Shown here piece after piece: positions 5,926 to 31,050 of a stretch of DNA of 64,000 nucleotides. Both the position numbers and the translations under genes were made by a program. The stretch lies in the NCBI RefSeq assembly GCF_026000115.1, contig NZ_AP026867.1, forward strand, positions 2,585,716-2,649,715, written 5' to 3'. Below the pieces are notes generated by a model. That model was not told the DNA's origin. It worked only from the letters and a program-made list of their open reading frames with translations, and did not search any database. The number at the start of each line of letters is the position of its first letter. Positions within the stretch are counted from its first letter, which is position 1. The DNA is from Aureispira anguillae. Lineage in GTDB: Bacteria; Bacteroidota; Bacteroidia; Chitinophagales; Saprospiraceae.

Positions 5926-6120
5926 TCAATAATGAGCGAAAAACAGATGCAAATAAATCATGGTTGTTTCGATCTTAGCATGCTGTAGGATTGCCTTTAA
6001 AATATGAATCGGCACCTTAGCCGCCAAATCCGTTGCAAAGGTATGGCGAGCCACATGGCTTGTTACGGGCTTTAGTATCCCTGCGTCATAGGCAATCTTC
6101 TTTGATTTATGGTTTTTCAC
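5926..6120 (-). pseudogene. tyrosine recombinase (phage-integrase family) C-terminal fragment (copy B)
   Basis: 64-aa ORF with catalytic box II HVARHTFAT...LQHAKIETTMIYLHL; no N-terminal domains. Confidence 0.65.
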
Positions 6121-6185: not shown

Positions 6186-6770
6186 ATGACAGATAGAGTC
6201 AATACAATACAGAAAAATGAATTAAACAAACATAAGCTTCATCAAAATGTAATTTCAAGCTTGTCTAACAAATTAGGCATTCCTGATTTAAGAGCACGAA
6301 ATATAACCATTCGAGATGAACGAAATTGGAGGATCAATGAGAAACAAATTGACTATTGTTGGTTAATCAATATATCCCGATCTTTGATTGGATCCTGCTG
6401 GTTATTTTCGATAAAATTCAATGAATGTATTTTTAGGGATATTAAAAATGAAACTGAATTGATCCAAGGAATTTTTACGATTGATAAACAAATTGAAATA
6501 GATAAGTTTTATAGCACTGTACAAGCTAAAAATTTTAAGGATAAAATAAAGGAATTAACTTCTTATGATATGTTTGATGTAAACTCTGGAATTACTTTAG
6601 ATGGCACTGGGTATGAATATTTAATTTTTAGCGTTAATGCTGAAATTAAGATGTCATTAAATAACCCAAATTCTAAAAATTGGAAAGTTTGGGAAGCTGA
6701 AGTATGGAGTATTGGTAAAGAATTAGCACAAAAATCAAAAATAAATAACTTAACAGAAATATTTGTATAA
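6186..6770 (+). CDS. hypothetical protein
   Basis: 194-aa ORF; no recognisable motif. Confidence 0.4.
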   Translation: MTDRVNTIQKNELNKHKLHQNVISSLSNKLGIPDLRARNITIRDERNWRINEKQIDYCWLINISRSLIGSCWLFSIKFNECIFRDIKNETELIQGIFTIDKQIEIDKFYSTVQAKNFKDKIKELTSYDMFDVNSGITLDGTGYEYLIFSVNAEIKMSLNNPNSKNWKVWEAEVWSIGKELAQKSKINNLTEIFV

Positions 6771-6840
6771 AACGATACTCATATTCCTTAATAATTGGAC
6801 AAAAAAGGAGTATTTAGGTAAAAAACTATTCGAACTACCC

Positions 6841-6950
6841 CTTTCCTTATCCCTGTGTCCACCCTACCCAGCGCATCATTCACCAACTTATTAAAAGGGT
6901 GCAAATAAATCATCGTTGCTTCAATCTTAGAATGCTGTAGAATCACCTAA
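6841..6950 (-). pseudogene. tyrosine recombinase 3'-end remnant (copy C), abutting first attC-like site
   Basis: gtgcaaataaatcatcgttgcttcaatcttagaatgctgtag parallels copy B; the translation ends as in copy A. Confidence 0.5.
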
Positions 6951-7011
6951 GGTGTGTATATAGTTATTTATAGCACTTGTATATGTAATTGTGTATACAA
7001 GTAAGTTGTGC
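6948..7011 (+). other. attC-like (or attI-like) site at start of cassette array
   Basis: cctaagGTGTGTATATAG ... gtgtatacaag ... GTTGTGC resembles the attC consensus aacaaaGTGTATAT ... catatacac ... GTTRRRY. Confidence 0.35.
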
Positions 7012-7098
7012 TTCATTGAAACTTTAGTTTTAAGAAAATTTAAATTGTGAATCTCATTTATTAATTTAACGTAGATACTTAAAATCTAAAGTAACATT

Positions 7099-10000
7099 AT
7101 GGAATCCCAAAGCAAATCTTTCGCATCTCCTTCTGAATTTTACAAGCTTAAAAGACCAGAATTTTTCTCTGACTCAAAGATTATCTATGAAGTCCAATTA
7201 ACAAAAGAACATCTAGCGTTAGAATTAGATCAAATCACTATCAATCAAAAGCAAGATGAATTTGAAACATTGTGTAGAAAATTAGCAGAAAAATTAATTG
7301 CTCCGAACTTAATCCCACAAGTTGGTCCTACTGGTGGAGGGGATGGTAAAACTGATTTCGAAACTCATCCCGTATCTCATCAAATTTCAGATAGATGGTT
7401 TGTAACTCAAGAGGGATGGAAAGAAACTGAAAAGTGGGCATTCGCAATTAGCGCAAAAAAAACATGGAAGTCCAAAGCTAAATCAGATATCATAAATATC
7501 TTAAGTACTAAACGTCCATACACTCATATTTTTTTCATGACAAATCAAAAACCGTCAAGTAAAAAAAAGAAAGAAGCTCAAGATTCATTTAAAGAAGAAT
7601 ATGGAATAGAGGTCACCATTCTTGATGGGGTCTGGATAATTGAAAAAATACTACAACATAACTTTATTGATTTGGTAGTAGATGCACTCAATTTATCTAA
7701 AGTTTATAAAGAAAAAAAAGTAATATTAGGTGCTAATGATGACTTAAGAGAAAAACAATTACGTGAATTAGAAGAAAAAATTTCAACTCCTAATAGATAC
7801 TTTGAATATGATTTTCAACGTGTAGAAGATGCGATTGAAGCTGCAATCATATCAAGAATGCTTGAAAAGCCAAGAGATGAAATTGAGGGAAAATTTCTAA
7901 GAGCAAAACGTTTTTGTAAAAAACTAAACAATCCTAAACAATGGCAAAGAATATATTATCAAAGGGCGTGGACATATATTCATTGGTTTGATGATTATGA
8001 AGCTTTCATTGAAGATTATAAACAATTTAAAAAACATATTTCCCTTGCTTGTAATATTTCAAGTATGGAATTATTCTTCAATTTTATAAGCCTTCTAAGA
8101 GGCTTAGAAGTTTCTGATGTTTGCAACTTAAATGAGTTAGGTATCTCATTCAAAGAGGAAAAAGCTGAATTCTTAGAATCTCTATCTAAATTCAACGATA
8201 CAAATAAAATTCCTTGTTCAACAGCGATTGCTCATACTTATAAAAATATCCAAAAATTAATTGATGCAAAAGTAGACGAATCCTCTATATACATAAAAGA
8301 GCTCTCTGAAGTATTAGTACAAGGTTCAAAATATTTAGATTATCCATTTGAGTATTTTACCGATATTTTCACCCTAATTGGCAATATTTTCCCAAATAAT
8401 GAAGAATTTGACAACTTAACAGATATCATAGCACAAATTACTTCAAAACGGCAATCAGACTTAGCAAGTGGAGAAGTTTTTTTAAATCGTGGACTTCAAA
8501 AAATTGAAGCTGAGTTGTTTAAAGAAAGTGTAGTTTTCTTTGGCAAAACCATTGTAAAACTAGCAAAAAAAGAAAGTAACGACTTAATGTATTTTGCTCT
8601 AAGAGGACTAGCAGAAGCTTATTATAGATTGGGTTTACTTTGGGCTGCGAATAACTGCCTTACAGCTTCTCTTTCTTTATCATTCAAATCGTGGTATGAA
8701 AAAGGAGTCATTCATAAAAGGGTATATGATTGTATAACTGCTTTAGCAAAGAATGAGTTAATAATTGGAAGAATTCCTTCTTATTTTTCGTGGCACGAAA
8801 ATCTACAAATTATTAGGAGAGAAATAAATCTTGATGAAATTCCAGCTGAAAAGTCCCCTTATAATATCCTAGACGTTTTTCTTGCAATAAAGCTATTAAA
8901 TACAAGTAATTCAGAAAACAAGTATTTAGCCAGAATCCCAAATCTTTTGGATGAAAAACATTTGTGGTTATCTCAAGATGCTTGTTTATACAAACTCGGT
9001 TATCTGGAAAGGATTAAAGAGAATTTCAAATCGGCAGGAATTAAAGATATGAAACAAATCGATGACTATTTCAGAAATTTAGCTACACAACCTGCTCAGA
9101 AAGAATTATTAAACCCAACGAATTTTCTTGGCGATGAAATCATTTATCTATCATCAATTATTTTAGGTTGTGAATTCAAGATTAAATGCATAAATGATAA
9201 AAGTCTAATTATAACTGTTGAAGCTTTCTTAGCATACTTTGAAACTTTTTTAGCTACTTCTTTAAAAAATGTTGTCCCAGCAACAGAGGAAATCTATCTT
9301 CATTTCAAACGAAATGAAGATTGCGAAATATTAACTTTTTCAAACAAAAACAAATCGAATGAGTATGATATTGAAATAGGGCATGCTACCTTTTCAATGG
9401 AAAATAGAAGTAAGTTATGGGAATTAATGATCAACTTAATATCCGATATACTTGGGCGAAATTTCTTTTTCGATGAAATTGAGAAATATCTTAAAAATCT
9501 CTTTCAAAAAGAAGAAATTTCAGAAAGACTGTCTATTGTGTTTGAGCATATTACATTCACTTATAACACATTAGGAGAGTCCCCTAAAATTCTATTAAAA
9601 GACTGGATTGACATTGAAAAAACAGAAAACTATTCTAATAAAAGAAGTACTCCACTAAATTATAAAACTGACCAAAACAACTCATCTTCAGAGCTTAATA
9701 ACCAAACACTTAATAATTATGGTCATAATAAAAGAAAAGCATATTCATTAATTGACGTCCCTCTTTGGGATGAAGCGGGTTGGATTTCTTTTGGTATTTT
9801 TCAGTATCAAAAGGGTATTGGAATTGCTCTAGGATTTAAAGACGCTAATTATGGAAAAAAGATATTTGATGGATGGATTAATAAAATGGGAACAACTGAT
9901 AAAGAAGAAATTATCAAAATATGTATCATCAAAGGTGTAAATAAGGCTCACCCTCATTGGTATAAAGTTTTAATCACATCTAACATGGTAAAAATGAATC

Positions 10001-10320
10001 ATCCTGATACACAAATATTTACTCTAACATCAAGATATAGAGAGTTTTTCCCTAACACTTCAACAAATCTTGACAACTTAATCATGGCCTATAAGCATAC
10101 GAAGAAATATCTACTATGTCCTGCTGAAACCATCAACAACACAGGTATAAAACCTTTTATTAATTACGGAATAATCAAAACAGAATTAACAATTAAAAAT
10201 GCGTGGGAAATCGGTATTCATGATATAGAAAAAGTCGTTATAAACAAAAAAGACATCCCAATTATTCCCAATAACATAAAAGAACCTCCTATCTTAAGTA
10301 TATTAAACTTAAAAGAATAA
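7099..10320 (+). CDS. large (1073 aa) protein with N-terminal Mrr-like (PD-(D/E)xK) restriction-endonuclease-like domain; candidate defense protein
   Basis: N-terminus FETLCRKLAEKLIAPNLIPQVGPTGGGDGKTDFE matches the Mrr_cat pattern (TgGxGDGGiD); rest alpha-helical, unrecognised. Confidence 0.4.
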   Translation: MESQSKSFASPSEFYKLKRPEFFSDSKIIYEVQLTKEHLALELDQITINQKQDEFETLCRKLAEKLIAPNLIPQVGPTGGGDGKTDFETHPVSHQISDRWFVTQEGWKETEKWAFAISAKKTWKSKAKSDIINILSTKRPYTHIFFMTNQKPSSKKKKEAQDSFKEEYGIEVTILDGVWIIEKILQHNFIDLVVDALNLSKVYKEKKVILGANDDLREKQLRELEEKISTPNRYFEYDFQRVEDAIEAAIISRMLEKPRDEIEGKFLRAKRFCKKLNNPKQWQRIYYQRAWTYIHWFDDYEAFIEDYKQFKKHISLACNISSMELFFNFISLLRGLEVSDVCNLNELGISFKEEKAEFLESLSKFNDTNKIPCSTAIAHTYKNIQKLIDAKVDESSIYIKELSEVLVQGSKYLDYPFEYFTDIFTLIGNIFPNNEEFDNLTDIIAQITSKRQSDLASGEVFLNRGLQKIEAELFKESVVFFGKTIVKLAKKESNDLMYFALRGLAEAYYRLGLLWAANNCLTASLSLSFKSWYEKGVIHKRVYDCITALAKNELIIGRIPSYFSWHENLQIIRREINLDEIPAEKSPYNILDVFLAIKLLNTSNSENKYLARIPNLLDEKHLWLSQDACLYKLGYLERIKENFKSAGIKDMKQIDDYFRNLATQPAQKELLNPTNFLGDEIIYLSSIILGCEFKIKCINDKSLIITVEAFLAYFETFLATSLKNVVPATEEIYLHFKRNEDCEILTFSNKNKSNEYDIEIGHATFSMENRSKLWELMINLISDILGRNFFFDEIEKYLKNLFQKEEISERLSIVFEHITFTYNTLGESPKILLKDWIDIEKTENYSNKRSTPLNYKTDQNNSSSELNNQTLNNYGHNKRKAYSLIDVPLWDEAGWISFGIFQYQKGIGIALGFKDANYGKKIFDGWINKMGTTDKEEIIKICIIKGVNKAHPHWYKVLITSNMVKMNHPDTQIFTLTSRYREFFPNTSTNLDNLIMAYKHTKKYLLCPAETINNTGIKPFINYGIIKTELTIKNAWEIGIHDIEKVVINKKDIPIIPNNIKEPPILSILNLKE

Positions 10321-10327
10321 AAACGAA

Positions 10328-10525
10328 GCACAACAAAGTGTATATTTCCATGACAGATTTCGGGAACAATCTTACAAGAATGAACGCATGAATTACACCG
10401 CAAAATCTGCGATTTTGCCACTAGTCGTAAAACAATTTACTGGCAAAATCGCAGATTTTGCTCAGGGAACAGCTATATTTATATTCGCATGACGCCTGTC
10501 ACGGAATATACACGGGCCGTTGTCC
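10328..10525 (+). other. attC-like site (long class)
   Basis: inverse core GCACAAC 8 bp after the stop; core GTTGTCC (reverse complement GGACAAC); internal palindrome caaaatctgcgattttgcc...ggcaaaatcgcagattttg. Confidence 0.6.
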
Positions 10526-10552
10526 ACCATTAAAAAAGAATAAATCATCGAA

Positions 10553-11140
10553 ATGAATTCCGCAGAACAGATATTTCAATTTTTAAACAAGGTTAGTAGG
10601 TTATCATTTCAATCATGGTCGTCTATGGTTGCGTACGCAATGGAGATTCAATTAAAAAAGGATGACTACTTCGTTAAAGAAGGAGAGGTCTCAAAGGAAA
10701 TAGGTTTCTTAACAAAAGGAATTGTTCGCTCCTACTATATTTCAAAGGAAGGAAAGGAATACAACAAAACGCTATTTGCAGCACCTAATATTATTGGCTC
10801 TTATGTTTCAATAATTACAGGGCAACCCAATCGTTTGCCTCAGCAAGCATTAACGGATTGTACGATTACTAAAATTCCCATGAGCGTTATTGAAAATCTA
10901 TCGAAAGAGCAAATAGAAATTGAGCGATTACGCAGAAAAATAGCAGAAATGTTTTTTGTGCTGAAAGAGAAGAGAGAACTCGAAATGGCTCTTTTGCAGG
11001 CAGAAGAACGATATTTAATTTTTCGGGAAGAATATCCAGGTGTAGAACAATTAATACCTCAATACCACATTGCATCTTACCTTGGTATCAGTGCAACTCA
11101 ACTTAGTCGAATCCGAAAAAAAATGAGCCTCCAATCATAG
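10553..11140 (+). CDS. Crp/Fnr-family transcriptional regulator
   Basis: cNMP-binding-like N-terminal domain; C-terminal HTH (ASYLGISATQLSRIRKK). Confidence 0.65.
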   Translation: MNSAEQIFQFLNKVSRLSFQSWSSMVAYAMEIQLKKDDYFVKEGEVSKEIGFLTKGIVRSYYISKEGKEYNKTLFAAPNIIGSYVSIITGQPNRLPQQALTDCTITKIPMSVIENLSKEQIEIERLRRKIAEMFFVLKEKRELEMALLQAEERYLIFREEYPGVEQLIPQYHIASYLGISATQLSRIRKKMSLQS

Positions 11141-11217
11141 TTCTTTACCTATGTAAATGACATTCATGCTCCAAGACTCTAATTTTGTAGTGTATTTTTT
11201 CACCAAAAAGAGTCATC

Positions 11218-11628
11218 ATGAGAAATAAAGATTTTCCACTTTTCACAGGTTTGTTTATACTGGCTGCCCTATGGAATCTTATAGGAGCAGGATTTGGTTA
11301 TTTCAATACCGAATACACTTTTCAGGGATTGTTTGAAAGAGAACTTAATGACCCGCTATTTTACGAAATATATAGAGGCGCATGGGGCACAACTTTGATG
11401 TTTTTCATTGGATATTTATTAGTTGCCTATAATCCGATTAAACATTCAGGTGTGGCATTAATTGGAGGAATAGGAAAATTGGCTTTTGCAATCGCAGAAC
11501 TACAATTATATCTTTCTGGGCTTGCCAATTCCATAATCTTAATCATCGTAGTTGGCGACTTTACCTTTTGTGCATTATTTGTTTATTACTTTATAAAGTT
11601 CTACACCAACAAAAAAGCAATCATATAA
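11218..11628 (+). CDS. integral membrane protein
   Basis: 136 aa, four predicted TM segments. Confidence 0.5.
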   Translation: MRNKDFPLFTGLFILAALWNLIGAGFGYFNTEYTFQGLFERELNDPLFYEIYRGAWGTTLMFFIGYLLVAYNPIKHSGVALIGGIGKLAFAIAELQLYLSGLANSIILIIVVGDFTFCALFVYYFIKFYTNKKAII

Positions 11629-11640
11629 ACCCCATCAATT

Positions 11641-12225
11641 ATGAAAATAGTAGCATTGCTTATATTCACATTGGTCAGCATAATCAATATTTATGCACAG
11701 GATAAATGGAAACTCGTAAAAAATAAAAATGAAATTAAAGTGTATGTTAGCGAAATTTCGGGTAGTAACTATTATGCATTCAAAGCCGTCATGACTGTAA
11801 AATCAACCGAAGCGGAAATAATTGAAGTCCTTAGGAATGTGAGTAATTACCCTGAGTGGTTTGCATTTACTGCATCCGCAAAATTGATTCAACAAACAAC
11901 GAATGAGCAGATCTTCTTCATGGAAACTGACTATCCTTGGCCATTTTCAAATGAATGTATGAACTATAATATGAGATTTGTGAAAGAGCAAGGTAAAAAC
12001 CAAAAAATTACAATTACTGAAACAGACAAAAAGGTAGATTGTAAATATTCATTAAAAAAAGCAAGTGGCTACATTTTGCTCGAACCAGATAAAGGGAATA
12101 CAAGAATAAGCTACTATTTCCATTCCGAACCTTCACAAAATATTCCATCGTGGCTTATTAACCCAAGGATACATGAAATGCCTTATCAAACTTTTATATC
12201 ATTAAAAGAACAGCTAAATATTTAA
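11641..12225 (+). CDS. secreted SRPBCC/START-like lipid-binding domain protein
   Basis: signal peptide; length and pattern (NYPEWF...) similar to START/Bet v1-like proteins. Confidence 0.35.
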   Translation: MKIVALLIFTLVSIINIYAQDKWKLVKNKNEIKVYVSEISGSNYYAFKAVMTVKSTEAEIIEVLRNVSNYPEWFAFTASAKLIQQTTNEQIFFMETDYPWPFSNECMNYNMRFVKEQGKNQKITITETDKKVDCKYSLKKASGYILLEPDKGNTRISYYFHSEPSQNIPSWLINPRIHEMPYQTFISLKEQLNI

Positions 12226-12229
12226 AAAC

Positions 12230-12685
12230 ATGATTCAGGAAAGTATGCTCTTGTTGTCAAGTCTGTCATTAGGTATATTTTTAGGTGCTCAAGTTACCGA
12301 AGCATTGTTATTTGTACCAAATTGGAAATCTTTAGGGGCTGATGATTTTTTTGACTTTTATAAAAATTATGGCAAGAAAATTCACCATTTTTTTGCACCA
12401 TTGACTATCGCAGCTACTGTACTACCCTTGATTACGGTTGTTTACAGCTTTATACATCAAACTAAGTATCAGGTTTTGTTTGGACTAATGGGATTGTTTA
12501 CATTAGCTTTTTTTTTAACTTATTTTTTGTATTTCAAAGAAGCAAATCAGCGGTTCTTTGATGGAAGTTTACCAAATGAAAAACTCCCAAAGGAATTAAA
12601 AAAATGGGGAAATTGGCACTGGATAAGAGTTTGTTTTGAGTTCATAGCTTTTGGATTATCATTATTCCTATTAATGAAAATTTGA
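12230..12685 (+). CDS. DUF1772-like small membrane protein
   Basis: 151 aa, four TM segments, VPNW motif. Confidence 0.3.
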   Translation: MIQESMLLLSSLSLGIFLGAQVTEALLFVPNWKSLGADDFFDFYKNYGKKIHHFFAPLTIAATVLPLITVVYSFIHQTKYQVLFGLMGLFTLAFFLTYFLYFKEANQRFFDGSLPNEKLPKELKKWGNWHWIRVCFEFIAFGLSLFLLMKI

Positions 12686-12692
12686 AAACGTT

Positions 12693-12752
12693 GTACAACA
12701 ATGTATTGTATCGCACACTAATCTAGCACAATCATATATAATAACGTTGCCA
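12693..12752 (+). other. attC-like site (short class, about 60 bp)
   Basis: GTACAACAATGTA ... taaCGTTGCCAat; closes the four-gene cassette 10553-12685. Confidence 0.5.
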
Positions 12753-12790
12753 ATATAGAACAAAAAATTGTACTAATTTAAACATCTAAA

Positions 12791-13258
12791 ATGACCAATC
12801 TAAAAATTACTAAAGATGGAATCTTAATTAATAGTGTTCTTCTTAGATGGGGAACTAAAAGAGAAATAATCAGAAAGAAATTAAACATTTCATTTAAAGA
12901 AGATGAAAGGATAACTGAATATCGCCCCGATTTTACTCTTGAAGTTTGTCGTGATATGTTTGATGATTTTTTCTTAAATTACGATTATCACTCAAAAACA
13001 CTAAAAGAAATTGAAATTCACCAAAACTGCAAAATTGAAATTCAATTGAATAACTCAATGCATTTTAGTACTGGCGATACCTATACGAATATATTAAAAC
13101 TTCTAAAGAAAGAGTTTTCTCTTAAAAAAATTGAAAAGGAAGAACATCTTATTCCAGAATTAAAAATGGTAATAGCTAGTGATAGAGAAATGGGAGGAGA
13201 TGGAAAAGGTCTTCGCTATTTATATCTTGGGGAAAATATCACTCATCTCCAAAACTAA
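12791..13258 (+). CDS. hypothetical protein
   Basis: 155-aa ORF, no motif recognised. Confidence 0.4.
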   Translation: MTNLKITKDGILINSVLLRWGTKREIIRKKLNISFKEDERITEYRPDFTLEVCRDMFDDFFLNYDYHSKTLKEIEIHQNCKIEIQLNNSMHFSTGDTYTNILKLLKKEFSLKKIEKEEHLIPELKMVIASDREMGGDGKGLRYLYLGENITHLQN

Positions 13259-13268
13259 ATTCTAAAGT

Positions 13269-13502
13269 ATGAAAAGAAGACTTAAAGAAATATTCATACT
13301 TCATGACTACATTGATGAAGAGAAAATTCCTACTCAAAAATATTCTAAAAAAGTATATCGATATTTATGCACTTCTCCAATTATTGCCCTTGAGGGCTTA
13401 GGAAGAAATGCTGCAAGAACAGATGGTATTTGGGCTTGGAGTGATTCCCTCGCTGAACCATATAAAAATGGAAAAAATCTGCTTACTAGAAAAATGCATT
13501 AA
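13269..13502 (+). CDS. hypothetical small protein
   Basis: 77-aa ORF, 10 bp after upstream gene. Confidence 0.35.
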   Translation: MKRRLKEIFILHDYIDEEKIPTQKYSKKVYRYLCTSPIIALEGLGRNAARTDGIWAWSDSLAEPYKNGKNLLTRKMH

Positions 13503-13876
13503 AAATGTTCAAGCACACTTATTTTCATACCCCTTCTGGTTTGCTTTTAAAATTTATATTCTGAGATTCAATCTTAGAAATGAAGTAAATCGTCTTATTG
13601 ATGAAAAAATTGAACAAAGAGAAATAAAAACGGTTGACAACAATTAGTGATCAAAATTCAGTAGGTCAAAAAAATACACCTTTTTGTCTTATTTTTTGTT
13701 GTTCCAACTATTATTATTGGCTATATAATTACGAATCTTATTGAGAACCAATTTGTAAGAATAATCTTGTTGTTCCACAAGAAAAAAGAAATCAAATGCC
13801 CCAACTTATGATGAGATTATGAAGGTAATGGTGAATTTCATGAATAAAAAATTAGAAGAAAATGAAGAAGAGAACA

Positions 13877-14824: not shown

Positions 14825-16198
14825 ATGAGTTTAATAAGACCTAGACTAAATGATTTTCATAATATCCCTATTACCCAAGAAGAAGTCGATTTTGCAATTC
14901 CTTTTTTAGATGAGGATATACCTCTTTATGTTGACCCTTTCTTATTATGGAAATCACCTTCTATGCAAGATAATTCTTTGCACCTCACGATAACAAATAG
15001 TTTTAACAATTTAGGTTACTTAGCTTCTCAGAACAAAGAAAAAGAAGCTCTTGAGATATTAATTAGAGCATCAGAATGCAATGAAGTCGGACTAGGTAAC
15101 TCTAAAACAAAAGTAGGAAAACGTATAGGGAAAAAACTAGCCAGTGATGTATTAGATCAATTTTCTACTATTCCCCAATTAAATAAAAACGGATTTATTC
15201 ACTTTGAAGAAATACAGCTATTAGTTGACAATTTTTCAAAAGACAGGGTAAGTGATATTGCATGTAATTTCATTCAATCATTTCTTGTTGATTTCACAAT
15301 CGAACAAGCTGAAAAACATGGCATTCCTATCGAACAAGTTTTATTAAAAAATATCTATAATACTAAAACTCATTCTTTTCAAGAAGAAAAAACTCATTTA
15401 CCAGTTAACCCAATAACCAAAGAACCTATTCTTCTTGTGCCCAAAAGGTGGTTAAAATATATCCCCTGGATTAATTCAGATGATTACTTCAAAAGTTATT
15501 ATTTAAAGAATATTCATAAAAAGGGGGATGCTATTCTTGACAGAGTAAAGCTTCTAAGCTTTAATAGACACAATTACGATATTGTTCAGGCATATACATC
15601 AATTAAAGAAAAGCATTTTGAAAATTGTAAGAATGATCCTCTATTTTCTCAGATACCCATTACATCTGCAAAAAGAAAAATCTCCACAATTCTAAAACTA
15701 CCAACAGGAAAGACAGATAACGCAGATCGTAAATATGAGGATAATACTTGTCAGTTCTTAACATCCTTAGTTTATCCACATTTAGATTTTGCACAAGAAC
15801 AAAGTAGAACTGAGTCAGGTGTTCAAATCAGAGATTTAATTTTTTACAATAATGCTTCTACCCCATTTTTAAAGGAAATATATAACACTTACGATTGTCG
15901 CCAAATTGTGATGGAACTAAAAAATGTGAAAGAAATTCAACAAAGTCACATTCTTCAACTAAACAGATATTTAAAAGATCAATTTGGACGATTTGGAGTT
16001 ATTATTACAAGAAATCCACCACCTAAAAAGGTTATTAAAAATATAATTGATTTATGGTCAGCCTATAGAAAATGTATTTTGGTTTTGGATGATTCAGATT
16101 TTAAAATGATGACTCAAGTATTTGAAAGTAAACAACGTGACCCAATTGAGGTAATCAAAAAAAAATATATAGAATTTACAAGAGCTTGCCCATCATAA
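14825..16198 (+). CDS. hypothetical protein (457 aa)
   Basis: long ORF, no recognisable catalytic motif. Confidence 0.45.
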   Translation: MSLIRPRLNDFHNIPITQEEVDFAIPFLDEDIPLYVDPFLLWKSPSMQDNSLHLTITNSFNNLGYLASQNKEKEALEILIRASECNEVGLGNSKTKVGKRIGKKLASDVLDQFSTIPQLNKNGFIHFEEIQLLVDNFSKDRVSDIACNFIQSFLVDFTIEQAEKHGIPIEQVLLKNIYNTKTHSFQEEKTHLPVNPITKEPILLVPKRWLKYIPWINSDDYFKSYYLKNIHKKGDAILDRVKLLSFNRHNYDIVQAYTSIKEKHFENCKNDPLFSQIPITSAKRKISTILKLPTGKTDNADRKYEDNTCQFLTSLVYPHLDFAQEQSRTESGVQIRDLIFYNNASTPFLKEIYNTYDCRQIVMELKNVKEIQQSHILQLNRYLKDQFGRFGVIITRNPPPKKVIKNIIDLWSAYRKCILVLDDSDFKMMTQVFESKQRDPIEVIKKKYIEFTRACPS

Positions 16199-17207: not shown

Positions 17208-17501
17208 ATGAAGAGGAGTAAATTTAGCACAGCTCAAAAAGCAAAGATATTAGCAGAGCATGACGGCGGAAAAAGTGTAACGGATTTATGCCGTCAATAC
17301 CAAATTAGTGCAGCTACGTTGTATAAATGGAAAAAGGACTATGAAGATAGTCAAGATGAAGATAAACGAAGAATAAAGGAATTAGAGGCAGAAAATGTTC
17401 GTTTAAAAAAGATGTATGCTAATTTAAGTATCGATCATGAGATACTTCAAGAAGGTTATGCAATGGTAAAAAAGTTCCAAGCCCAAAAGAACAAGAAATG
17501 A
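17208..17501 (+). CDS. IS3-family transposase OrfA (HTH, leucine zipper)
   Basis: MKRSKFSTAQKAKILAEHDGGKSVTDLCRQYQISAATLYKWKK. Confidence 0.9.
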   Translation: MKRSKFSTAQKAKILAEHDGGKSVTDLCRQYQISAATLYKWKKDYEDSQDEDKRRIKELEAENVRLKKMYANLSIDHEILQEGYAMVKKFQAQKNKK

Positions 17502-18334
17502 TATTGGATTGCTTGTCAAAAGAATACAGCATTCGTCGTACTTGTGTTGTTTTGGGCTTACGCCGTCAGACATATTATAGTCGTAAATCAGGTCATCGCC
17601 CAGAAGAAAAGGATGAAGAAATAGTGGATTTACTACATCAGTTAACAAAACGTTTTGTATCATGGGGCTTTTGGAAAATTTATCACTATTTGAGAAATCA
17701 AGGCTATGCCTATAATCATAAGAGAATTTATCGTATATGGTGTATAGAGGGTTTAAATTTACGTTTACCGCCCAAACGCAAGAGGATTTATCGAAAATAT
17801 CAACAACTTTTGGCTCCTAAAGAAGTCAACAAAGGTTGGGCTATGGATTTTCTAAGTGATTGGGTTGTTAGCCCAACTAATCATCGTATACGAATTATCA
17901 ATATTATGGATGAAGGTTCTCGCCGAGCCTTATGGACAGAAGCTCATCATAATATTTCAGCTAAAAAGCTAATAGAGGTTTTGGAGAAAGTGATAGAATA
18001 TCGTGGAAAACCATCTTATATTCGTTGTGACAATGGTCCTGAGTTTATTTCAGAAAAGCTCAAATTGTGGGCAAATAAACATGATATTGAATTGAAATTC
18101 ATCCAACCAGGAAAGCCATCTCAGAATGGTTTGATTGAGCGTTTGAATAAAACATTGAGAGCCGAATGTTTGAACTTATGCTGGTTTCAATCTCTAGAAG
18201 AATTAAATGAAGAAATACAGGTTTGGAGTCAGATTTATAATCTAGAACGACCTCATAAGAACTTAGGTAATATTACCCCAGATTCTTTTGAGATTCTAAA
18301 TCAGAAACTCTACTTTTTAGCGGTTGCTGCTTAG
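17498..18334 (+). CDS. IS3-family transposase OrfB (DDE integrase core)
   Basis: rve-domain motifs WAMDF...D, CDNGPEF, KPSQNGLIERLNKTLRAE. Confidence 0.9.
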   Translation: MILDCLSKEYSIRRTCVVLGLRRQTYYSRKSGHRPEEKDEEIVDLLHQLTKRFVSWGFWKIYHYLRNQGYAYNHKRIYRIWCIEGLNLRLPPKRKRIYRKYQQLLAPKEVNKGWAMDFLSDWVVSPTNHRIRIINIMDEGSRRALWTEAHHNISAKKLIEVLEKVIEYRGKPSYIRCDNGPEFISEKLKLWANKHDIELKFIQPGKPSQNGLIERLNKTLRAECLNLCWFQSLEELNEEIQVWSQIYNLERPHKNLGNITPDSFEILNQKLYFLAVAA

Positions 18335-18560
18335 GGGAAGCCTACATCAGGCACTCGAATTCCAGTTCCATCAATCGCCAATAGTCGGTATCCTTTCCAA
18401 TATTTTATTCCTCGATTGCTTCGATAAAAAAGTTGGCAACTATAAGAAAATAAGTCTTCAAAAAAACAAACCTTAATCTTTGAACGAGCTAAGGCTAATG
18501 CTGTCTTTGTTGGTGGGCACCTTGATCTAAATAGTCTTGAGTGGGAGATTAATTCGGCGT

Positions 18561-18755: not shown

Positions 18756-19095
18756 CCCCTAAATATATGTTTTTTCTGACTACTTTCCTTAACTTTATGG
18801 CAGTGAACAAGAAATATACGTCAATCCCACATCTTGGGCTAAAGCTAAAGTTCATTCGTATGTAACACTACGCAAAATCGCAGATTTTGCTAGTACTCGA
18901 AGAAAAAATTACTAGCAAAATCTGCGATTTTGCTTTGGGATTAGCTATATTCCTATTCGTATAACTTGTGGCACTGCGTATATCAAGACGTTGTCATCAA
19001 TTCAAAGAAAAATCATTACGCAAATACACTGCGCAGCAACTTTTTAACTTTGAGTCTCAGTAAAAAATCTAATCTAGGACTTAAAAATAAAAACT

Positions 19096-23127: not shown

Positions 23128-24408
23128 ATGAATATTGATAAACTTAAAAAGCAAATAGATAAATTCCAAAGTTCGATTAGGTATTATGAAATACTCTTTC
23201 AAAGGGATGGCAATATCACTCCTGATGAACAAGCTTTATTGAATAAATTGAATGAGTCTATAGAAAAAATAAACAATAAAATAAAATCCATTCAAAAGAG
23301 TACTATAGAGAAACTTACGCTCAAATACAATGACTGTAAAAGAAGTTTTAATCTTATAAAAGAAAGCCTTGAAAATTATATTAATGACAATCAGGCATTG
23401 TCTAAAAATATAAACTCATTTGATTCAGATTACACTTCTTATTTTAAAAAGTTTGCTAAAAGCGATTTTCATACACAGAATCAAATAAAAAAGCAGAAAG
23501 AACAAATAAAAAAATGGCAAACAGAAGTCCTAGCTGTTAAAGAAAAACATATTAAGCCCGTTAAAGATCTTTCTAAACAGAAAGCTAATCCTAAAATGAA
23601 ATCTGAAACAAAAAAGATTGCGACCTACAAAGATGTTACAAAATATCAAATTGATGCAATCGTTGATTTGTTTAAAAATGGAAATAATCGAAGCATTGAT
23701 AACAATGCAGCAATTCATCATAATGATGTAAAACAAGGAAATCTAGATGACTGTTATTTTTTAGCTGCTTTAGCGGCTGTTGCTAAAGCAAATCCTAGTT
23801 CTATTAAGAATCTTATCACTCCAAAAAAAGATGGAACTTATGATGTAAAGCTATACATTCGAAAGAAAAAGTTCTTAAACCCTAGTGGATTAAATCCCAT
23901 AATTGTAAATGTTTCAACAGAATTACCTATTTCTAACAAAACTGACAACCCTATTTATGCTAGGCATGGAGACAACGAACTATGGGTTTCCTTAGTTGAA
24001 AAAGCGTTTGCTAAATTAAATGGAACTAAATATGATAGTTCCTATAAAAAAGTAGAATGGGGTCATGGTTATGAAGCTATTGAAAATATAACAGGGCATG
24101 CTGCTTCTCATTTTATTCCAAAGAAAAAGACTAGGGAGGACTTAATTGAAATTATACAAAGTGCATTAATAGACGAACGCCCTATTACTGCTGGAACCAA
24201 ACCAAATAAAAAAAACAATTTCAACTTCAAACTAGATGATAATACAGAACTTGTTCCAGCACATGAATACTACATTATAAACATAAACAATAAAGAAATA
24301 GAACTTCGAAACCCACATGGGAATGACACATATATTGGAGGAAATATATTTACTATTGACATCAGTAATTTTATTAGTTATTTTAGTATAGTTTCTTTAA
24401 ATAGTTAA
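23128..24408 (+). CDS. calpain-like cysteine protease (peptidase C2-like) with N-terminal coiled-coil
   Basis: QGNLDDCYFLAALAA matches the calpain active-site Cys motif QGxLGDCWLLAA; HEYYI with ELRNPHGND parallels calpain GHAYSV and RLRNPWG. Confidence 0.55.
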   Translation: MNIDKLKKQIDKFQSSIRYYEILFQRDGNITPDEQALLNKLNESIEKINNKIKSIQKSTIEKLTLKYNDCKRSFNLIKESLENYINDNQALSKNINSFDSDYTSYFKKFAKSDFHTQNQIKKQKEQIKKWQTEVLAVKEKHIKPVKDLSKQKANPKMKSETKKIATYKDVTKYQIDAIVDLFKNGNNRSIDNNAAIHHNDVKQGNLDDCYFLAALAAVAKANPSSIKNLITPKKDGTYDVKLYIRKKKFLNPSGLNPIIVNVSTELPISNKTDNPIYARHGDNELWVSLVEKAFAKLNGTKYDSSYKKVEWGHGYEAIENITGHAASHFIPKKKTREDLIEIIQSALIDERPITAGTKPNKKNNFNFKLDDNTELVPAHEYYIININNKEIELRNPHGNDTYIGGNIFTIDISNFISYFSIVSLNS

Positions 24409-24825: not shown

Positions 24826-24830
24826 CGCCA

Positions 24831-25024
24831 CTTAACAAGAAATATACGTCAATCCCACATCTTGGGCTAAAGCTAAAGTTCATTCGTATGTAACACTACG
24901 CAAAATCGCAGATTTTGCTAGTACTCGAAGAAAAAATTACTAGCAAAATCTGCGATTTTGCTTTGGGATTAGCTATATTCCTATTCGTATAACTTGTGGC
25001 ACTGCGTATATCAAGACGTTATAG
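24831..25024 (+). other. attC-like site (long class)
   Basis: CTTAACAAgaaatatacg...gcaaaatcgcagattttgctagtactcgaagaaaaaattactagcaaaatctgcgattttgc...gcgtatatcaagacGTTATAG; near-identical to 18811-18996. Confidence 0.65.
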
Positions 25025-29135: not shown

Positions 29136-30105
29136 CTAAAAGGCTGGCTTGTAGTTTTTTTCTGTCATATACCGTTCATTCAATCTCATTTGCTTGCGTG
29201 TTCTTTTTGTTGGTGGTCGTATTCGGACGCTTTCATAATAGCGTTTTATTAGGTTAATCGCAGCTTTAACATATACTCCTTGATGCTCTGAAAGCAACAA
29301 ATCAAACCAATCTTTTTTCACTATAGTAATTGCTATATTTCTATTTATTTGACCCTTCAGTTTTTGTCCATTCAATTCTTTTTCTGCTACATGAATAAAC
29401 ATCGAGCGAATATTGTAAAAGATCAACACCGACCATAAATCCTGTAAAACAAATTGGGCTTTGTAACCTGAAAATACACCTAATTTTAGTTGATTTTTAA
29501 GCTCATCAAAAGCTGTTTCCTCTCCCCACCTTTTAGAATATAAATCTTTAAATTCTTCTCTGCTAAACTTATTCTTATCCAATAAATTCGTTGCTAAAAC
29601 CTCGGTTGTTCCATTCGGTAATTCTACTCGAAGTAACCTTATTTTGAAGGTTGAAAATTTTGGATGCTTATTTTTTAAGCCATACTTATCTCTTGCTGAA
29701 TAATAAGCTCTTTCACCTAACCGAAATTCTACTATGCTATCAGTATCTCCACTTTTTAAAAAATTTTCTACTGCTTTTATTCCCTTTATTTTCATTCTTA
29801 TCAAGCAGGGCTTTCTCGATTTTAAGTGGCGGTCTAATAGTAAACTATCGCAATAATGGCGATCATAGATCATGATTGAGTTGCTAGGAAGAATTTCAAA
29901 TTTTTGATGAAGGGCAACCAACTCTGCTACTGATCTTGGATGTAAATGCACATGATAGAATACTCGATTCAATACATCATGTATCGCTAATATCTTGCAG
30001 GCTGCTATTGCTCCATATTGGTTCTTGTGAACACCTATTAAGCATCTATTTTCTTCCGTATCAGGCACTCGAATTCCAATTCCATCAATCGCCAATAGTT
30101 GGTAT
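29136..30105 (-). pseudogene. IS4/IS5-superfamily DDE transposase, 5' part severed by IS3-B insertion
   Basis: the N-terminal MGYTS residues of the tracked ORF come from the IS3-B terminus; DDE_Tnp_1 YREK signature present. Confidence 0.65.
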
Positions 30106-30141
30106 TGAGGTATTGAGGTGTACCCCATTTATAGGACCAGT

Positions 30142-31050
30142 TTAAGCTGATTTTAAATTTATTAGATATTTTTCTTCCAAAATCTCCTCACAGAAATTTT
30201 GGGAGGTTTTGGAAGGGGAATATCGGTCACAAGGACGTTCATCGTCAATCCCCATGTGTCTTCTTTCCCAGTTATATTTGTTAAAATACTTTTTCATTCC
30301 TGTATGCAATGCACTTCCATCCAAATACTCTCGAATATAAGCATCTTCGTATTTCACAGACCACCATAATCGTTCAATAAACACATTATCGATACAGCGC
30401 CCTTTTCCATCCATGCTAAATTTAATTCCATAATCTTTGGTAACACATTTGACAAATTCTTTTGATGTAAATTGACTTCCTTGATCCGTATTCAAAATCT
30501 CTGGCTTCCCATATCTTTCTATCCCTTCTTCTAATGTATTTTTGCACCATAGGGCATCCATCGTATTCGATATTGACCAAGACACTACAAATCGACTATA
30601 AAGGTCAATGACAGCAGTTAAATATAGAAAACCCTTTGGCATAGGAATATAAGTAATATCCATTGCCCAGACTTGGTTAGGTCGTTCTATTTTTAAGCCT
30701 CTCAGTAGATAAGGAAAAACTTGATGGTCTTCTCCTTTTCCTGGTTTTGACGTCTGTGGTCCTGGTAAAATGGATCGCAAGCCCATTACAGAATAATACA
30801 ATCGATTAATACGCTTTCGATTCACCTTAAAACCTTTATCCGCCGTCAACCATAAATGCATGGCACGAGCTCCTTTATAGGGATGCTTTAGGTAATGTTC
30901 ATCCATTAATCGCATCAACTCCATATTTAATTCGCTCTCTTCTTTTGGTTGATAATAAATACCAGAGCGATGAATACCTATCAACTTGCATTGACGGCGA
31001 ACACTCAAAATTGGGTGATTAGAATTAATATGTTGACGTTTCTCGGACAA
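30142..31050 (-). CDS. IS3-family transposase OrfB
   Basis: rve DDE core (WAMDITYIP, TDQGSQFTS, IERLWWSVKYE). Confidence 0.9.
   Translation of the reverse strand: MSEKRQHINSNHPILSVRRQCKLIGIHRSGIYYQPKEESELNMELMRLMDEHYLKHPYKGARAMHLWLTADKGFKVNRKRINRLYYSVMGLRSILPGPQTSKPGKGEDHQVFPYLLRGLKIERPNQVWAMDITYIPMPKGFLYLTAVIDLYSRFVVSWSISNTMDALWCKNTLEEGIERYGKPEILNTDQGSQFTSKEFVKCVTKDYGIKFSMDGKGRCIDNVFIERLWWSVKYEDAYIREYLDGSALHTGMKKYFNKYNWERRHMGIDDERPCDRYSPSKTSQNFCEEILEEKYLINLKSA

What the first reader, a model, noticed from the sequence alone, without database searches (positions are those of the whole stretch)
7099..10320. 1073-aa cassette protein with Mrr-like nuclease N-terminus: candidate single-gene defense system
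The first cassette ORF has an N-terminal region FETLCRKLAEKLI...QVGPTGGGDGKTDFE that matches the Mrr catalytic-domain pattern of PD-(D/E)xK restriction endonucleases. About 900 residues of unrecognised helical sequence follow. Large nuclease-fused proteins in integron cassettes are a frequent hiding place for uncharacterised antiphage systems.
Basis: partly seen in the sequence, partly recalled or inferred. Interest (0 to 1): 0.55.

Follow-up and report, generated by a model that had tools for sequence, protein, structure and literature searches.

The report
Large uncharacterised integron-cassette protein, probable nuclease
The 1073-residue gene is real and belongs to a large, unnamed protein family that moves between distant bacteria as an unusually big integron cassette; it probably joins a restriction-enzyme-like nuclease to a sensor scaffold and may defend against phages, but neither point is proven.

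Summary
The ORF at 7099-10320 (+) is exactly as described. The window is Aureispira anguillae. The protein has no hit in Pfam, NCBIfam, PADLOC or PDB, yet its family holds about 950 clusters at 50% identity, occurs in 241 species genomes from more than 15 phyla, and keeps one architecture. That architecture is a conserved N-terminal alpha/beta domain, about 460 aa of TPR-like helices, a middle alpha/beta domain, a linker and a C-terminal alpha/beta domain. It is therefore not '900 helical residues'. The cassette claim is strongly supported: an attC-like hairpin follows the gene, and the unit's first 10 nt are the exact reverse complement of its 3' box. About a dozen homologues in other taxa show the same geometry. 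No intact integron integrase lies in the window. The Mrr-like reading is plausible but unproven. Motif order, conserved residues (E56, D82, D86, E88, S118-x-K120) and secondary-structure order fit. Pfam Mrr_cat and the Mrr-like SMEK_N give only sub-threshold hits, hhalign against E. coli Mrr is not significant, and AlphaFold leaves the motif unmodelled. There is no NTPase and no conserved partner gene. Neighbours are often defence or mobile-element genes. Best reading: a single-gene sensor-plus-nuclease defence candidate.

The parts
5926..6120 (-). Truncated tyrosine-recombinase gene (C-terminal 64 aa, with the box II HxxR and the catalytic Tyr region). Orientation is that expected of an integron integrase, but it is a remnant.
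   Evidence: Pfam Phage_integrase E=1.4e-12, profile positions 112-171 of 172; ORF list.
6788..6946 (-). Second, shorter copy of the recombinase 3' end. It shares a 56-nt repeat with 5941-5996 and abuts the site that starts the cassette.
   Evidence: Repeat families D16 and D17; translation ILQHSKIEATMIYLH.
6943..7014 (+). Upstream recombination site (a short attC-like or attI-like element) ending in the 3' box GTTGTGCTTC at 7005-7014. The cassette begins after the G at 7005.
   Evidence: Sequence; exact complementarity to 10325-10334.
7006..10519 (+). The gene cassette (3514 nt): one ORF plus its attC.
   Evidence: GTTGTGCTTC at 7005 is the reverse complement of GAAGCACAAC at 10325. The same rule holds at three other exact and three one-mismatch junctions in the window.
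7099..10320 (+). ORF of 1073 aa; member of a large unannotated family.
7099..7728 (+). N-terminal alpha/beta domain (aa 1-210), the putative Mrr/SMEK-like PD-(D/E)xK nuclease. Candidate catalytic residues are E56, D82, D86, E88, (E111), S118 and K120.
   Evidence: Conservation; sub-threshold Mrr_cat and SMEK_N hits; secondary-structure order.
7303..7398 (+). Invariant motif PNLIPQVGPTGGGDGKTDxET... (aa 69-100). It is the most conserved part of the family, yet pLDDT is about 30 in the model.
7732..9108 (+). TPR-like helical repeat region (aa 212-670), the presumed sensor or scaffold.
9136..9588 (+). Middle alpha/beta domain (aa 680-830); fold not identified. E708, E715 and R810 are invariant.
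9610..9714 (+). Low-complexity, poorly conserved linker (aa 838-872).
   Evidence: pLDDT below 50 at aa 860-868; column identity 0.18.
9721..10317 (+). C-terminal alpha/beta domain (aa 875-1073); fold not identified. H876, W890, W895, D934 and Y955 are conserved.
10325..10528 (+). attC-like site: 5' box GAAGCACAAC (10325-10334), a bulged stem, two central 19-nt palindromes (10400-10418 and 10443-10461), and 3' box GTTGTCC (10519-10525).
   Evidence: ssDNA folding z=-5.75 for the top strand and -6.28 for the bottom strand; 19 palindrome copies in the window against 0.1 expected; no Rfam family.

Best explanation
The gene encodes a stand-alone, cytoplasmic, four-part protein.

Shown:
- It is an integron-type gene cassette.
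- It belongs to a very large, horizontally spread family with a fixed architecture.
- It has no P-loop NTPase and no conserved partner gene.
- Its N-terminal domain is by far the most conserved part and carries a dense set of invariant acidic and basic residues.
- Its centre is a TPR-like scaffold of the kind that binds peptides or proteins.

Inferred:
- The N-terminal domain is a divergent Mrr/SMEK-like PD-(D/E)xK nuclease. Its motif would be E56 ... D82-x3-D86-x-E88 ... S118-A-K120, an 'SxK' variant carrying a family-specific insertion of about 16-20 residues.
- The TPR region and the two C-terminal alpha/beta domains hold this nuclease inactive until they bind a phage-derived or other foreign ligand.
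- The nuclease then cuts DNA, either destroying the invader or killing the infected cell.

In short, it would be a single-gene sensor-plus-effector antiphage system carried in integron arrays, on plasmids and in defence islands.
For: ORF and family. There are 953 clusters at 50% identity with E<=1e-30, and all full-length top hits cover profile positions 1-1077.

Cassette. The same geometry is seen around homologues in other taxa.

No partner gene: the largest neighbour family is present in 6 of 85 loci and in at most 3 of 123 nearest ORFs.

Neighbours:
- Wadjet JetABCD.
- HipAB, AbiGi and IS91.
- A NERD-UvrD helicase.
- Type I and III R-M, MmeI, MADS, SoFic, PDC-S02 and AbiEii-type ATPases.
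- AbiEii and a NACHT protein on a Nostoc plasmid, and Tn7-like genes in Agrobacterium.
- A GmrSD cassette in the same array.

Nuclease reading:
- E56, D82, D86, E88, S118 and K120 are at least 97% conserved.
- Mrr_cat hits: E=0.028 native, and E=4.9e-4, 0.019 and 0.098 after removing the insertion; the insertion-deleted hits cover profile positions ~4-99 of 115. For a family named in advance, E/24736 gives p of about 1e-6 per sequence.
- SMEK_N hits 7 of 75 members and the near-clade consensus. SMEK is described as Mrr-like (bioRxiv 10.1101/2023.06.08.544223).
- The modelled order alpha(52-67) ... beta(113-118)-alpha-beta(143-148)-alpha-beta(171-175)-alpha matches Mrr_cat from the (Q/E/S)xK strand onward.

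Sensor reading: TPR hits to Rap, PlcR, LGN and MalT. The effector is more conserved than the rest: column identity 0.57-0.79 against 0.28-0.37.

Literature: integron cassettes are rich in defence systems, including Mrr_cat fusions (bioRxiv 10.1101/2024.07.02.601686).
Against: - No significant hit to any nuclease or defence model.
- All Mrr_cat and SMEK_N hits are below the gathering thresholds, and unrelated models score as well or better: SLT_2 in 27 of 75 members (best E=5.7e-4) and DUF1638 in 19 of 75.
- The family consensus gives no Mrr_cat hit.
- The family profile does not find E. coli Mrr, and hhalign against a shallow Mrr-clade profile gives P of about 0.2.
- AlphaFold does not build the motif region (pLDDT ~30), so the fold and the catalytic geometry are untested.
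- Defence association is qualitative only; no background rate was measured.
- No experiment exists.
Confidence: 0.45

Rival explanations
1. The conserved N-terminal domain is an enzyme or ligand-binding module of another kind. One possibility is a glycine-rich phosphate- or nucleotide-binding loop on a Rossmann-like beta-alpha-beta core. The protein would still be an accessory or conflict protein, but it would not act by cutting DNA.
For: The GPTGGGD loop is glycine-rich. Hits of similar strength go to non-nuclease models covering the beta-alpha-beta-alpha-beta part: DUF1638 in 19 of 75 members and the PDB chain Dph2 at E=0.023. AlphaFold does not form the expected beta1-beta2 hairpin. hhalign against Mrr is not significant.
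Against: There is no Walker A motif. Motif order and spacing fit Mrr_cat block by block. Two independent Mrr-like Pfam models recur in the correct register. An invariant helix-borne Glu, two Asp and SxK form a classical nuclease constellation.
Confidence: 0.2
2. It is a constitutive restriction-type enzyme of the type IV or Mrr kind. It would recognise modified or otherwise foreign DNA directly, with the TPR and C-terminal domains serving DNA recognition or oligomerisation rather than sensing a phage protein.
For: Mrr-like motifs. No methyltransferase partner is needed, which is typical of type IV enzymes. Another type IV enzyme, GmrSD, is a cassette in the same array.
Against: No recognisable DNA-binding domain (winged helix, SRA or similar) is found in any library. 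TPR scaffolds usually bind peptides or proteins. The domain order is the reverse of Mrr, whose catalytic domain is C-terminal (sequence; Pfam column).
Confidence: 0.15
3. It is not an immune protein. It would be a cassette-borne accessory protein with another cellular role, such as a scaffold, a regulator, or a factor for maintenance of, or competition between, mobile elements.
For: No hit in PADLOC. Many neighbours are ordinary metabolic or regulatory genes. Presence on plasmids next to ParAB or transposition genes would also fit a role in the mobile element itself.
Against: The distribution is patchy and crosses phyla: 241 of about 186,000 species genomes. Defence genes recur nearby. The terminal catalytic-looking domain is strongly conserved while the middle is variable.
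Confidence: 0.12

Closest known systems
Mrr-family PD-(D/E)xK nucleases (Pfam Mrr_cat PF04471; the Mrr-like 'SMEK' effector domain of short-Argonaute APAZ proteins, PF21941)
   Same: Same block order: helix with FE, then a glycine-rich G-x-G-D-x-x-D loop, then a hydrophobic strand ending (Q/E/S)-x-K, then a helix, then a strand ending T-(T/N), then 'hLDG..hh..h'. Sub-threshold profile hits fall in the correct register.
   Different: Scores are below the curated cutoffs. Ser replaces Glu/Gln in the xK motif. There is an extra insertion of about 16-20 residues between the Asp and the SxK strand. The domain is N-terminal and fused to about 860 unrelated residues. The fold is not confirmed.
Avs / AVAST and other STAND-type antiviral NTPases (N-terminal effector, often an Mrr-like nuclease; central P-loop NTPase; C-terminal TPR sensor)
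   Same: Overall logic of an N-terminal effector followed by a TPR-like sensor in one polypeptide. It is a single gene found in defence islands. One STAND-TPR structure (6mfv) and MalT domain III are among the fold hits.
   Different: There is no Walker A/B motif or NTPase domain at all (all-helical model). Two extra alpha/beta domains sit at the C-terminus. No PADLOC Avs model hits.
Integron gene cassettes that encode antiphage systems (sedentary chromosomal integron 'biobanks', e.g. the Mrr_cat-holin fusion Epona; bioRxiv 10.1101/2024.07.02.601686)
   Same: An attC-bounded, single-ORF cassette lies in a co-oriented array that also carries a GmrSD restriction cassette. It has a nuclease-like domain fused to other modules.
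   Different: Those systems are described as small and 'streamlined'. This cassette is 3.5 kb with a 1073-aa protein, sits in a Bacteroidota (Saprospiria) genome, and has attC sites of about 130-200 nt. No intact integrase is in the window.
RRNPP / Rap-PlcR-type and LGN-type TPR receptors
   Different: Sequence identity is 8-15%. There is no HTH or phosphatase output domain. The similarity is generic to the repeat fold.

Membership tests
Mrr-like PD-(D/E)xK nuclease (Pfam Mrr_cat / SMEK_N) | Profile match at or above the curated Pfam threshold | tested here: not met
   The full-length protein and 38 close members give no hit at E<=10. The best native N-terminal domain scores 15.0 bits (E=0.028). 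The best insertion-deleted construct scores 20.6 bits against a cutoff of 21. SMEK_N best is E=0.0083, and 14.5-15.2 bits (cutoff 27) for the near-clade consensus.
Mrr-like PD-(D/E)xK nuclease (Pfam Mrr_cat / SMEK_N) | Catalytic signature: acidic residue on helix 1, Asp at the start of strand 2, and (D/E/Q)xK on strand 3, all conserved | tested here: inconclusive
   E56, D82, D86, E88, S118 and K120 are 97-100% conserved and in the right order. However, Ser occupies the (D/E/Q) position, and the assignment rests on a motif alignment that is not statistically significant.
Mrr-like PD-(D/E)xK nuclease (Pfam Mrr_cat / SMEK_N) | alpha-beta-beta-beta-alpha-beta core fold | tested here: inconclusive
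   The model gives alpha(52-67), beta(113-118), alpha, beta(143-148), alpha, beta(171-175), which is consistent. Residues 71-100, where strands 1-2 should be, have pLDDT of about 30. The N-terminal-only model failed (pLDDT 35). Fold searches returned only TPR hits.
Mrr-like PD-(D/E)xK nuclease (Pfam Mrr_cat / SMEK_N) | Metal-dependent nuclease activity | not testable with these tools
   Needs biochemistry.
Integron gene cassette | attC site 3' of the ORF: imperfect bulged hairpin bounded by inverse core sites ...AAC / GTT... | tested here: met
   10325-10528: GAAGCACAAC ... GTTGTCC. ssDNA folding z=-5.75 and -6.28, with the boxes paired at the base of the stem. At least 11 similar elements are in the window.
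Integron gene cassette | The 5' end of the cassette is complementary to the variable part of its own attC 5' box, the signature of attC x attC/attI recombination at G|TT | tested here: met
   There is an exact 10-mer at 7005 and 10325. Three more exact and three one-mismatch junctions occur in the array. By my estimate about 0.1-0.3 exact matches would arise by chance. The shuffled control at <=1 mismatch gave a mean of 4.0 against 11 observed.
Integron gene cassette | Adjacent functional platform: an intact intI gene with attI and a Pc promoter | tested here: not met
   Only two truncated tyrosine-recombinase 3' fragments are present (5926-6120 and 6788-6946, minus strand). None of the 20 larger window ORFs scanned encodes an intact integrase. 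Whether the remnant is IntI-type cannot be told from 64 residues.
Avs / STAND antiviral NTPases | Central P-loop (Walker A/B) NTPase domain | tested here: not met
   The protein has no G/AxxxxGK[ST] motif, and only 3 of 80 members have a chance match beyond residue 200. The region is all-helical TPR in the model.
Any known or candidate defence system in PADLOC-DB v2.0.0 | HMM hit to a system component | tested here: not met
   0 families at E<=1.
Antiphage defence system (functional class) | Enrichment next to known defence genes or mobile elements, and a patchy horizontally transferred distribution | tested here: inconclusive
   The patchy cross-phylum distribution is met. Many defence and mobile-element neighbours were seen, but no background frequency was measured.
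Antiphage defence system (functional class) | Protection against phage on expression | not testable with these tools
   Needs experiment.

The most novel reading that the evidence does not exclude
This is the founding member, so far unnamed, of a large new family of NTPase-less single-chain immune receptors. A divergent Mrr-like nuclease would be held in check by a TPR scaffold and two novel alpha/beta domains. The family would spread across phyla as one of the largest recurrent integron cassettes (about 3.5 kb), which contradicts the view that integron-borne defence must be 'streamlined'.
Probability: 0.35. Interest if true: 0.7.

Novelty: new variant of a known kind. Interest (0 to 1): 0.58.

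Why it matters
If it is a defence system, it adds a family of about 1,000 sequence clusters to the immune repertoire. The family is present in Bacteroidota, Cyanobacteriota, Acidobacteriota, Pseudomonadota, Bacillota and others, and no current annotation resource (Pfam, NCBIfam, PADLOC, PDB) recognises it. It would show how a TPR sensor can control a nuclease without a STAND NTPase, and it contains two alpha/beta domains of unknown fold. It also shows that integrons in Bacteroidota and other little-studied phyla move cassettes of 3.5 kb. Finally, it shows that cassette boundaries explain why such genes so often appear alone on short metagenomic contigs, which is useful for cassette-based gene discovery.

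Tried and rejected
- Direct HMM scans of the full protein against Pfam, NCBIfam and PADLOC, and sequence and profile searches of PDB: nothing.
- Pfam on 38 full-length members: only noise.
- N-terminal domain predicted alone: I submitted it without an alignment by mistake. pLDDT was 35, the model is unusable, and both prediction jobs were then spent.
- Family profile against E. coli Mrr by hmmsearch and hhalign, and hhalign against a 121-sequence Mrr-clade alignment: not significant. The Mrr alignment was shallow (at least 72% identity, Neff 2), so this is a weak negative.
- Local jackhmmer for Mrr-like ORFs in the fetched loci: one weak hit, not usable.
- One Pfam call on 10 far-clade N-terminal domains missed the members that hit SMEK_N.
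- STAND/Avs hypothesis: rejected, no Walker A motif.
- Conserved partner gene or operon: rejected.
- Partial plasmid hits that might have revealed other architectures (H13 N-terminal only, H14 C-terminal only): both are gene remnants.
- The flanking palindromes as a known RNA family: rejected. The only hit is a sub-threshold miRNA-like hairpin.
- A strict 7-nt cassette-rule test across 77 loci was too noisy in AT-rich flanks: 6 observed against 2.2 in the control. It was replaced by a structural test: 8 of 76 above the coding-sequence 95th percentile, where about 3.8 are expected.
Full report
**1. The observation**

The ORF is real and sits exactly where stated: 7099..10320 (+), ATG to stop, 1073 aa. 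It is 100% identical to a hypothetical protein of Aureispira anguillae (Bacteroidota). The first homology search found 505 proteins at E<=0.001. The best 120 are 43-53% identical, cover 98-100% of the query and are 1050-1100 aa long. All are either unnamed or called 'hypothetical', and none has a precomputed Pfam domain.

An exhaustive profile search of 1.84 billion cluster representatives found 953 clusters at E<=1e-30 and 1,871 at E<=1e-10. Every full-length hit among the top 150 spans profile positions ~1-1077.

In one genome per species, 241 genomes encode a relative. They include:
- Many Bacteroidota, plus Ignavibacteriales, Parachlamydiales, Lentisphaeria, Fusobacteriaceae and Desulfobacterium.
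- Acidobacteriota, Cyanobacteriota, Alpha-, Beta- and Gammaproteobacteria, Moorella, Chloroflexus, Planctomycetes and Verrucomicrobia.
- MAGs labelled Peregrinibacteria and Nanohalarchaeota; their binning was not verified.

Two clades are visible, one at about 40-54% and one at about 28-32% identity to the query.

The full-length protein has no hit in Pfam, PADLOC or NCBIfam at E<=1, and none in PDB sequences at E<=10, either alone or as a profile.

**2. Anatomy of the protein**

AlphaFold2 with a 38-sequence alignment gave a confident model, with mean pLDDT 83 and pTM 0.74. It shows five parts:
- An N-terminal alpha/beta domain (1-210).
- A helical repeat region (212-670).
- An alpha/beta domain (~680-830).
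- A low-confidence, low-complexity linker (~838-872).
- A C-terminal alpha/beta domain (~875-1073).

No Walker A motif exists, so this is not an Avs/STAND NTPase.

Conservation is uneven. Column identity is 0.79 for the motif (residues 69-100) and 0.57 for the N-terminal core. It is 0.35 for the TPR region, 0.28 for the middle domain, 0.18 for the linker and 0.37 for the C-terminal domain.

Across 80 diverse members the N-terminal domain holds a dense set of conserved charged residues: D25, E56, R60, E64, D82, K84, D86, E88, E111, S118, K120, K126, D130, R139 and D176. That pattern looks like an active site.

Oddly, the invariant motif (residues 71-100) is the one part that AlphaFold does not model; its pLDDT is about 30.

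**3. Is the N-terminus Mrr-like?**

By eye, five blocks align with E. coli Mrr in the right order:

| E. coli Mrr | This protein |
|---|---|
| FE | FE |
| VGGTGDGGIDG | VGPTGGGDGKTDF |
| VYVQAKRW | AFAISAKKTW |
| VFITTSGFT | IFFMTNQKP |
| VLVDGERLVHLM | TILDGVWIIEKI |

This protein has an extra 16-20 residues before the SxK strand (Mrr sequence). The modelled secondary-structure order from that strand onward also fits.

Statistically the picture is weak.
- Isolated N-terminal domains hit Pfam Mrr_cat once natively (E=0.028).
- After removing 16 insertion residues, 3 of 5 constructs hit. The best gives E=4.9e-4 and 20.6 bits against a cutoff of 21, covering profile positions 6-99 of 115.
- Across 75 native domains, SMEK_N hit 7 (best E=0.0083) and Mrr_cat hit 1. 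The unrelated SLT_2 hit 27 and DUF1638 hit 19, with comparable E-values.
- The near-clade consensus hit SMEK_N (E=0.02-0.03), aligning residues ~109-184 to profile positions 62-139 of 140. It did not hit Mrr_cat.

SMEK is the 'Mrr-like' effector of some short-Argonaute systems (PMC10810196; bioRxiv 10.1101/2023.06.08.544223). Both recurring nuclease models therefore belong to one group.

Because the Mrr hypothesis was stated before any search, the per-model p-value (E divided by 24,736) is about 1e-6 for the native hit. That is meaningful even after allowing for the roughly 85 related sequences tried.

On the other side:
- The family profile does not find E. coli Mrr.
- hhalign against a shallow Mrr-clade alignment gives P of about 0.2. 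In its permissive alignment mode it recovers part of the by-eye register: FE, the glycine-rich GD...D motif (offset by one residue), FITTS/FITNQ and VLVDG/ILDG. The (Q/S)AK strand is left unaligned or misaligned.
- The PDB profile search gives only a spurious Dph2 hit.

My estimate is about 0.6-0.65 that this is a divergent Mrr-like PD-(D/E)xK domain with an SxK variant. From my own knowledge, SxK variants are known in Cfr10I/NgoMIV-type enzymes; this was not tested here.

**4. The cassette**

A 19-nt palindrome, GCAAAATCNNNGATTTTGC, occurs 19 times in the window against 0.1 expected. All copies are on the + strand and intergenic, and they are usually paired.

Each pair sits inside a 130-200-nt element with a common layout: AAAAAC-N7-AAC-AA(T)GTGTATAT ... 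ATATACAC-N-GTT-N7.

The element after this gene (10325-10528) folds as one long bulged hairpin in either strand (z=-5.75 and -6.28). Its AAC and GTT boxes pair at the base. No Rfam family matches.

The diagnostic integron rule holds. GTTGTGCTTC at 7005 is the exact reverse complement of GAAGCACAAC at 10325. Three other junctions are exact (20266/22697, 27126/28912, 38622/39763), and three more have one mismatch.

The gene is therefore a 3514-nt attC-bounded cassette within a co-oriented array.

The array also holds a GmrSD type IV restriction cassette, a calpain-like protease, IS copies and a possible multi-gene cassette.

No intact integron integrase is in the window. Two truncated tyrosine-recombinase 3' ends lie immediately upstream, in the expected divergent orientation. 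This end of the array is therefore degenerate, or the functional intI lies elsewhere in the genome.

**5. The cassette travels**

Homologues in unrelated taxa show the same geometry:
- Matching boxes lie upstream and downstream in L009 (Peregrinibacteria MAG), L008 (Marinifilaceae), L015 (Bacteroidales), and L016/L022 (Ignavibacteriales and an unclassified MAG).
- AAC...GTT-bounded hairpins start 10-20 nt after the stop in Prolixibacter, Saccharicrinis, Tenacibaculum, Polaribacter and Flavobacterium.
- The 5' boxes are shared between taxa: accgcacAAC, aaatggtAAC, aaacacAAC and tgcatatAAC.

In a blind structural test, 8 of 76 downstream regions exceeded the 95th percentile of coding-sequence controls, where about 3.8 are expected. 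About a dozen look convincing by eye, and all are from the near clade.

This explains why 35 of the 120 best homologues sit on contigs under 4 kb, which is roughly the cassette length. Assemblies break at cassette boundaries.

The far clade instead occurs on plasmids, several of them conjugative, and next to transposons.

**6. Context and function**

No neighbouring gene is conserved. The largest neighbour family is in 6 of 85 loci, and no family occurs in more than 3 of 123 nearest ORFs.

Neighbours often belong to defence systems or mobile elements:
- Wadjet.
- HipAB, AbiGi and IS91.
- A NERD-UvrD helicase.
- Type I and III R-M, MmeI, MADS, SoFic, PDC-S02 and AbiEii-type ATPases.
- SAVED and Fic proteins.
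- AbiEii and a NACHT protein.
- Tn7-like genes.

I could not compute an enrichment statistic.

One 11.6-kb record labelled 'Bacteriophage sp.' carries a 28%-identical copy; this was not examined further.

The literature shows that integron cassettes are rich in antiphage systems, including Mrr_cat fusions. It stresses their small size, and this 3.5-kb cassette is an outlier in that respect.

**7. Verdict**

Best reading (confidence about 0.45): a single-gene sensor-plus-effector defence candidate. A divergent Mrr/SMEK-like nuclease at the N-terminus would be controlled by a TPR scaffold and two unidentified alpha/beta domains.

- Shown: the gene, the family, the architecture, the cassette, and the absence of both an NTPase and a partner gene.
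- Inferred: nuclease chemistry, sensing, and a defence role.

In terms of what it works like, the nearest analogues are Avs-type effector-sensor proteins and nuclease-fusion integron cassettes. It is not a member of any named family tested here.

Novelty: a new variant of a known kind. Interest is moderate to fairly high. The reasons are the size and complete lack of annotation of the family, the unmodelled invariant motif, and the spread of an unusually large integron cassette across phyla.

Noticed in passing
window 6900-55100: Most of the window is an integron-like cassette array. It has at least 11 attC-like elements of 130-200 nt, each built around paired 19-nt palindromes (GCAAAATCNNNGATTTTGC), all on the + strand. 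Start-to-end box complementarity is exact at 4 junctions. This is in a Saprospiria (Bacteroidota) genome; no paper in the searched library mentions Aureispira together with integrons.
   Followed up: partly
window 5926-6120 and 6788-6946 (minus strand): Two truncated copies of the 3' end of a tyrosine-recombinase gene share a 56-nt repeat and flank a 194-aa ORF of unknown function (6186-6770). This may be a decayed or rearranged integron integrase. No intact integrase is in the window.
   Followed up: partly
window 31986-33719: A complete GmrSD type IV restriction endonuclease (GmrSD_N E=1e-38, GmrSD_C E=2e-21) sits directly after an attC-like element. It is a known defence gene carried as a cassette in the same array.
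   Followed up: no
window 17498-18334, 29136-31050; repeats at 18388, 31392, 36132: IS transposase genes (rve and DDE_Tnp_1) are inserted within the array. They are accompanied by 300-nt and 100-200-nt repeats that recur three or four times.
   Followed up: no
window 18801-18992 and 24829-25020: Two attC-like elements are 99% identical over 192 nt, which suggests recent duplication or recombination within the array.
   Followed up: no
window 10520-13640: The unit after the gene may be a multi-gene cassette: a cNMP-binding regulator, a START-domain protein, an anthrone-oxygenase-like protein and others. Its start box GTTGTCCACC matches GGTTGACAAC at 13632 with one mismatch. That would be unusual for an integron cassette.
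   Followed up: no
protein residues 71-100 (window 7309-7398): The invariant motif of the family (PQVGPTGGGDGKTD...) is the only long stretch that AlphaFold leaves unmodelled, with pLDDT about 30 in a model averaging 83. It may be a mobile catalytic or regulatory loop, or it may reflect the shallow, low-diversity alignment.
   Followed up: partly
homologue contigs; loci L009, L013, L015, L016: 35 of the 120 closest homologues lie on contigs of 3.2-4.0 kb that hold nothing but the gene. This includes an isolate genome (Saccharicrinis aurantiacus, 3831-nt contig). Contig length is about the cassette length, so assemblies appear to break at attC sites.
   Followed up: partly
window 14825-16198 and 23128-24408: Other cassette-array ORFs have suggestive domains: a weak PD-(D/E)XK (PDDEXK_3, E=6e-4) hit in a 457-aa protein, and a calpain-family cysteine protease (E=1e-25).
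   Followed up: no
L005 11338-13041; L089 10447-11826; L091 10392-11699: Several homologues are followed on the same strand by a 430-570-aa ORF, annotated as hypothetical or as a protein kinase. Clustering found no homology among such neighbours, so no partner was inferred. A very divergent shared partner was not excluded.
   Followed up: partly
phage record MT836254.1 (hit H15): An unannotated 11.6-kb 'Bacteriophage sp.' contig from human faeces encodes a 28%-identical full-length homologue. Whether it is really viral was not checked.
   Followed up: no
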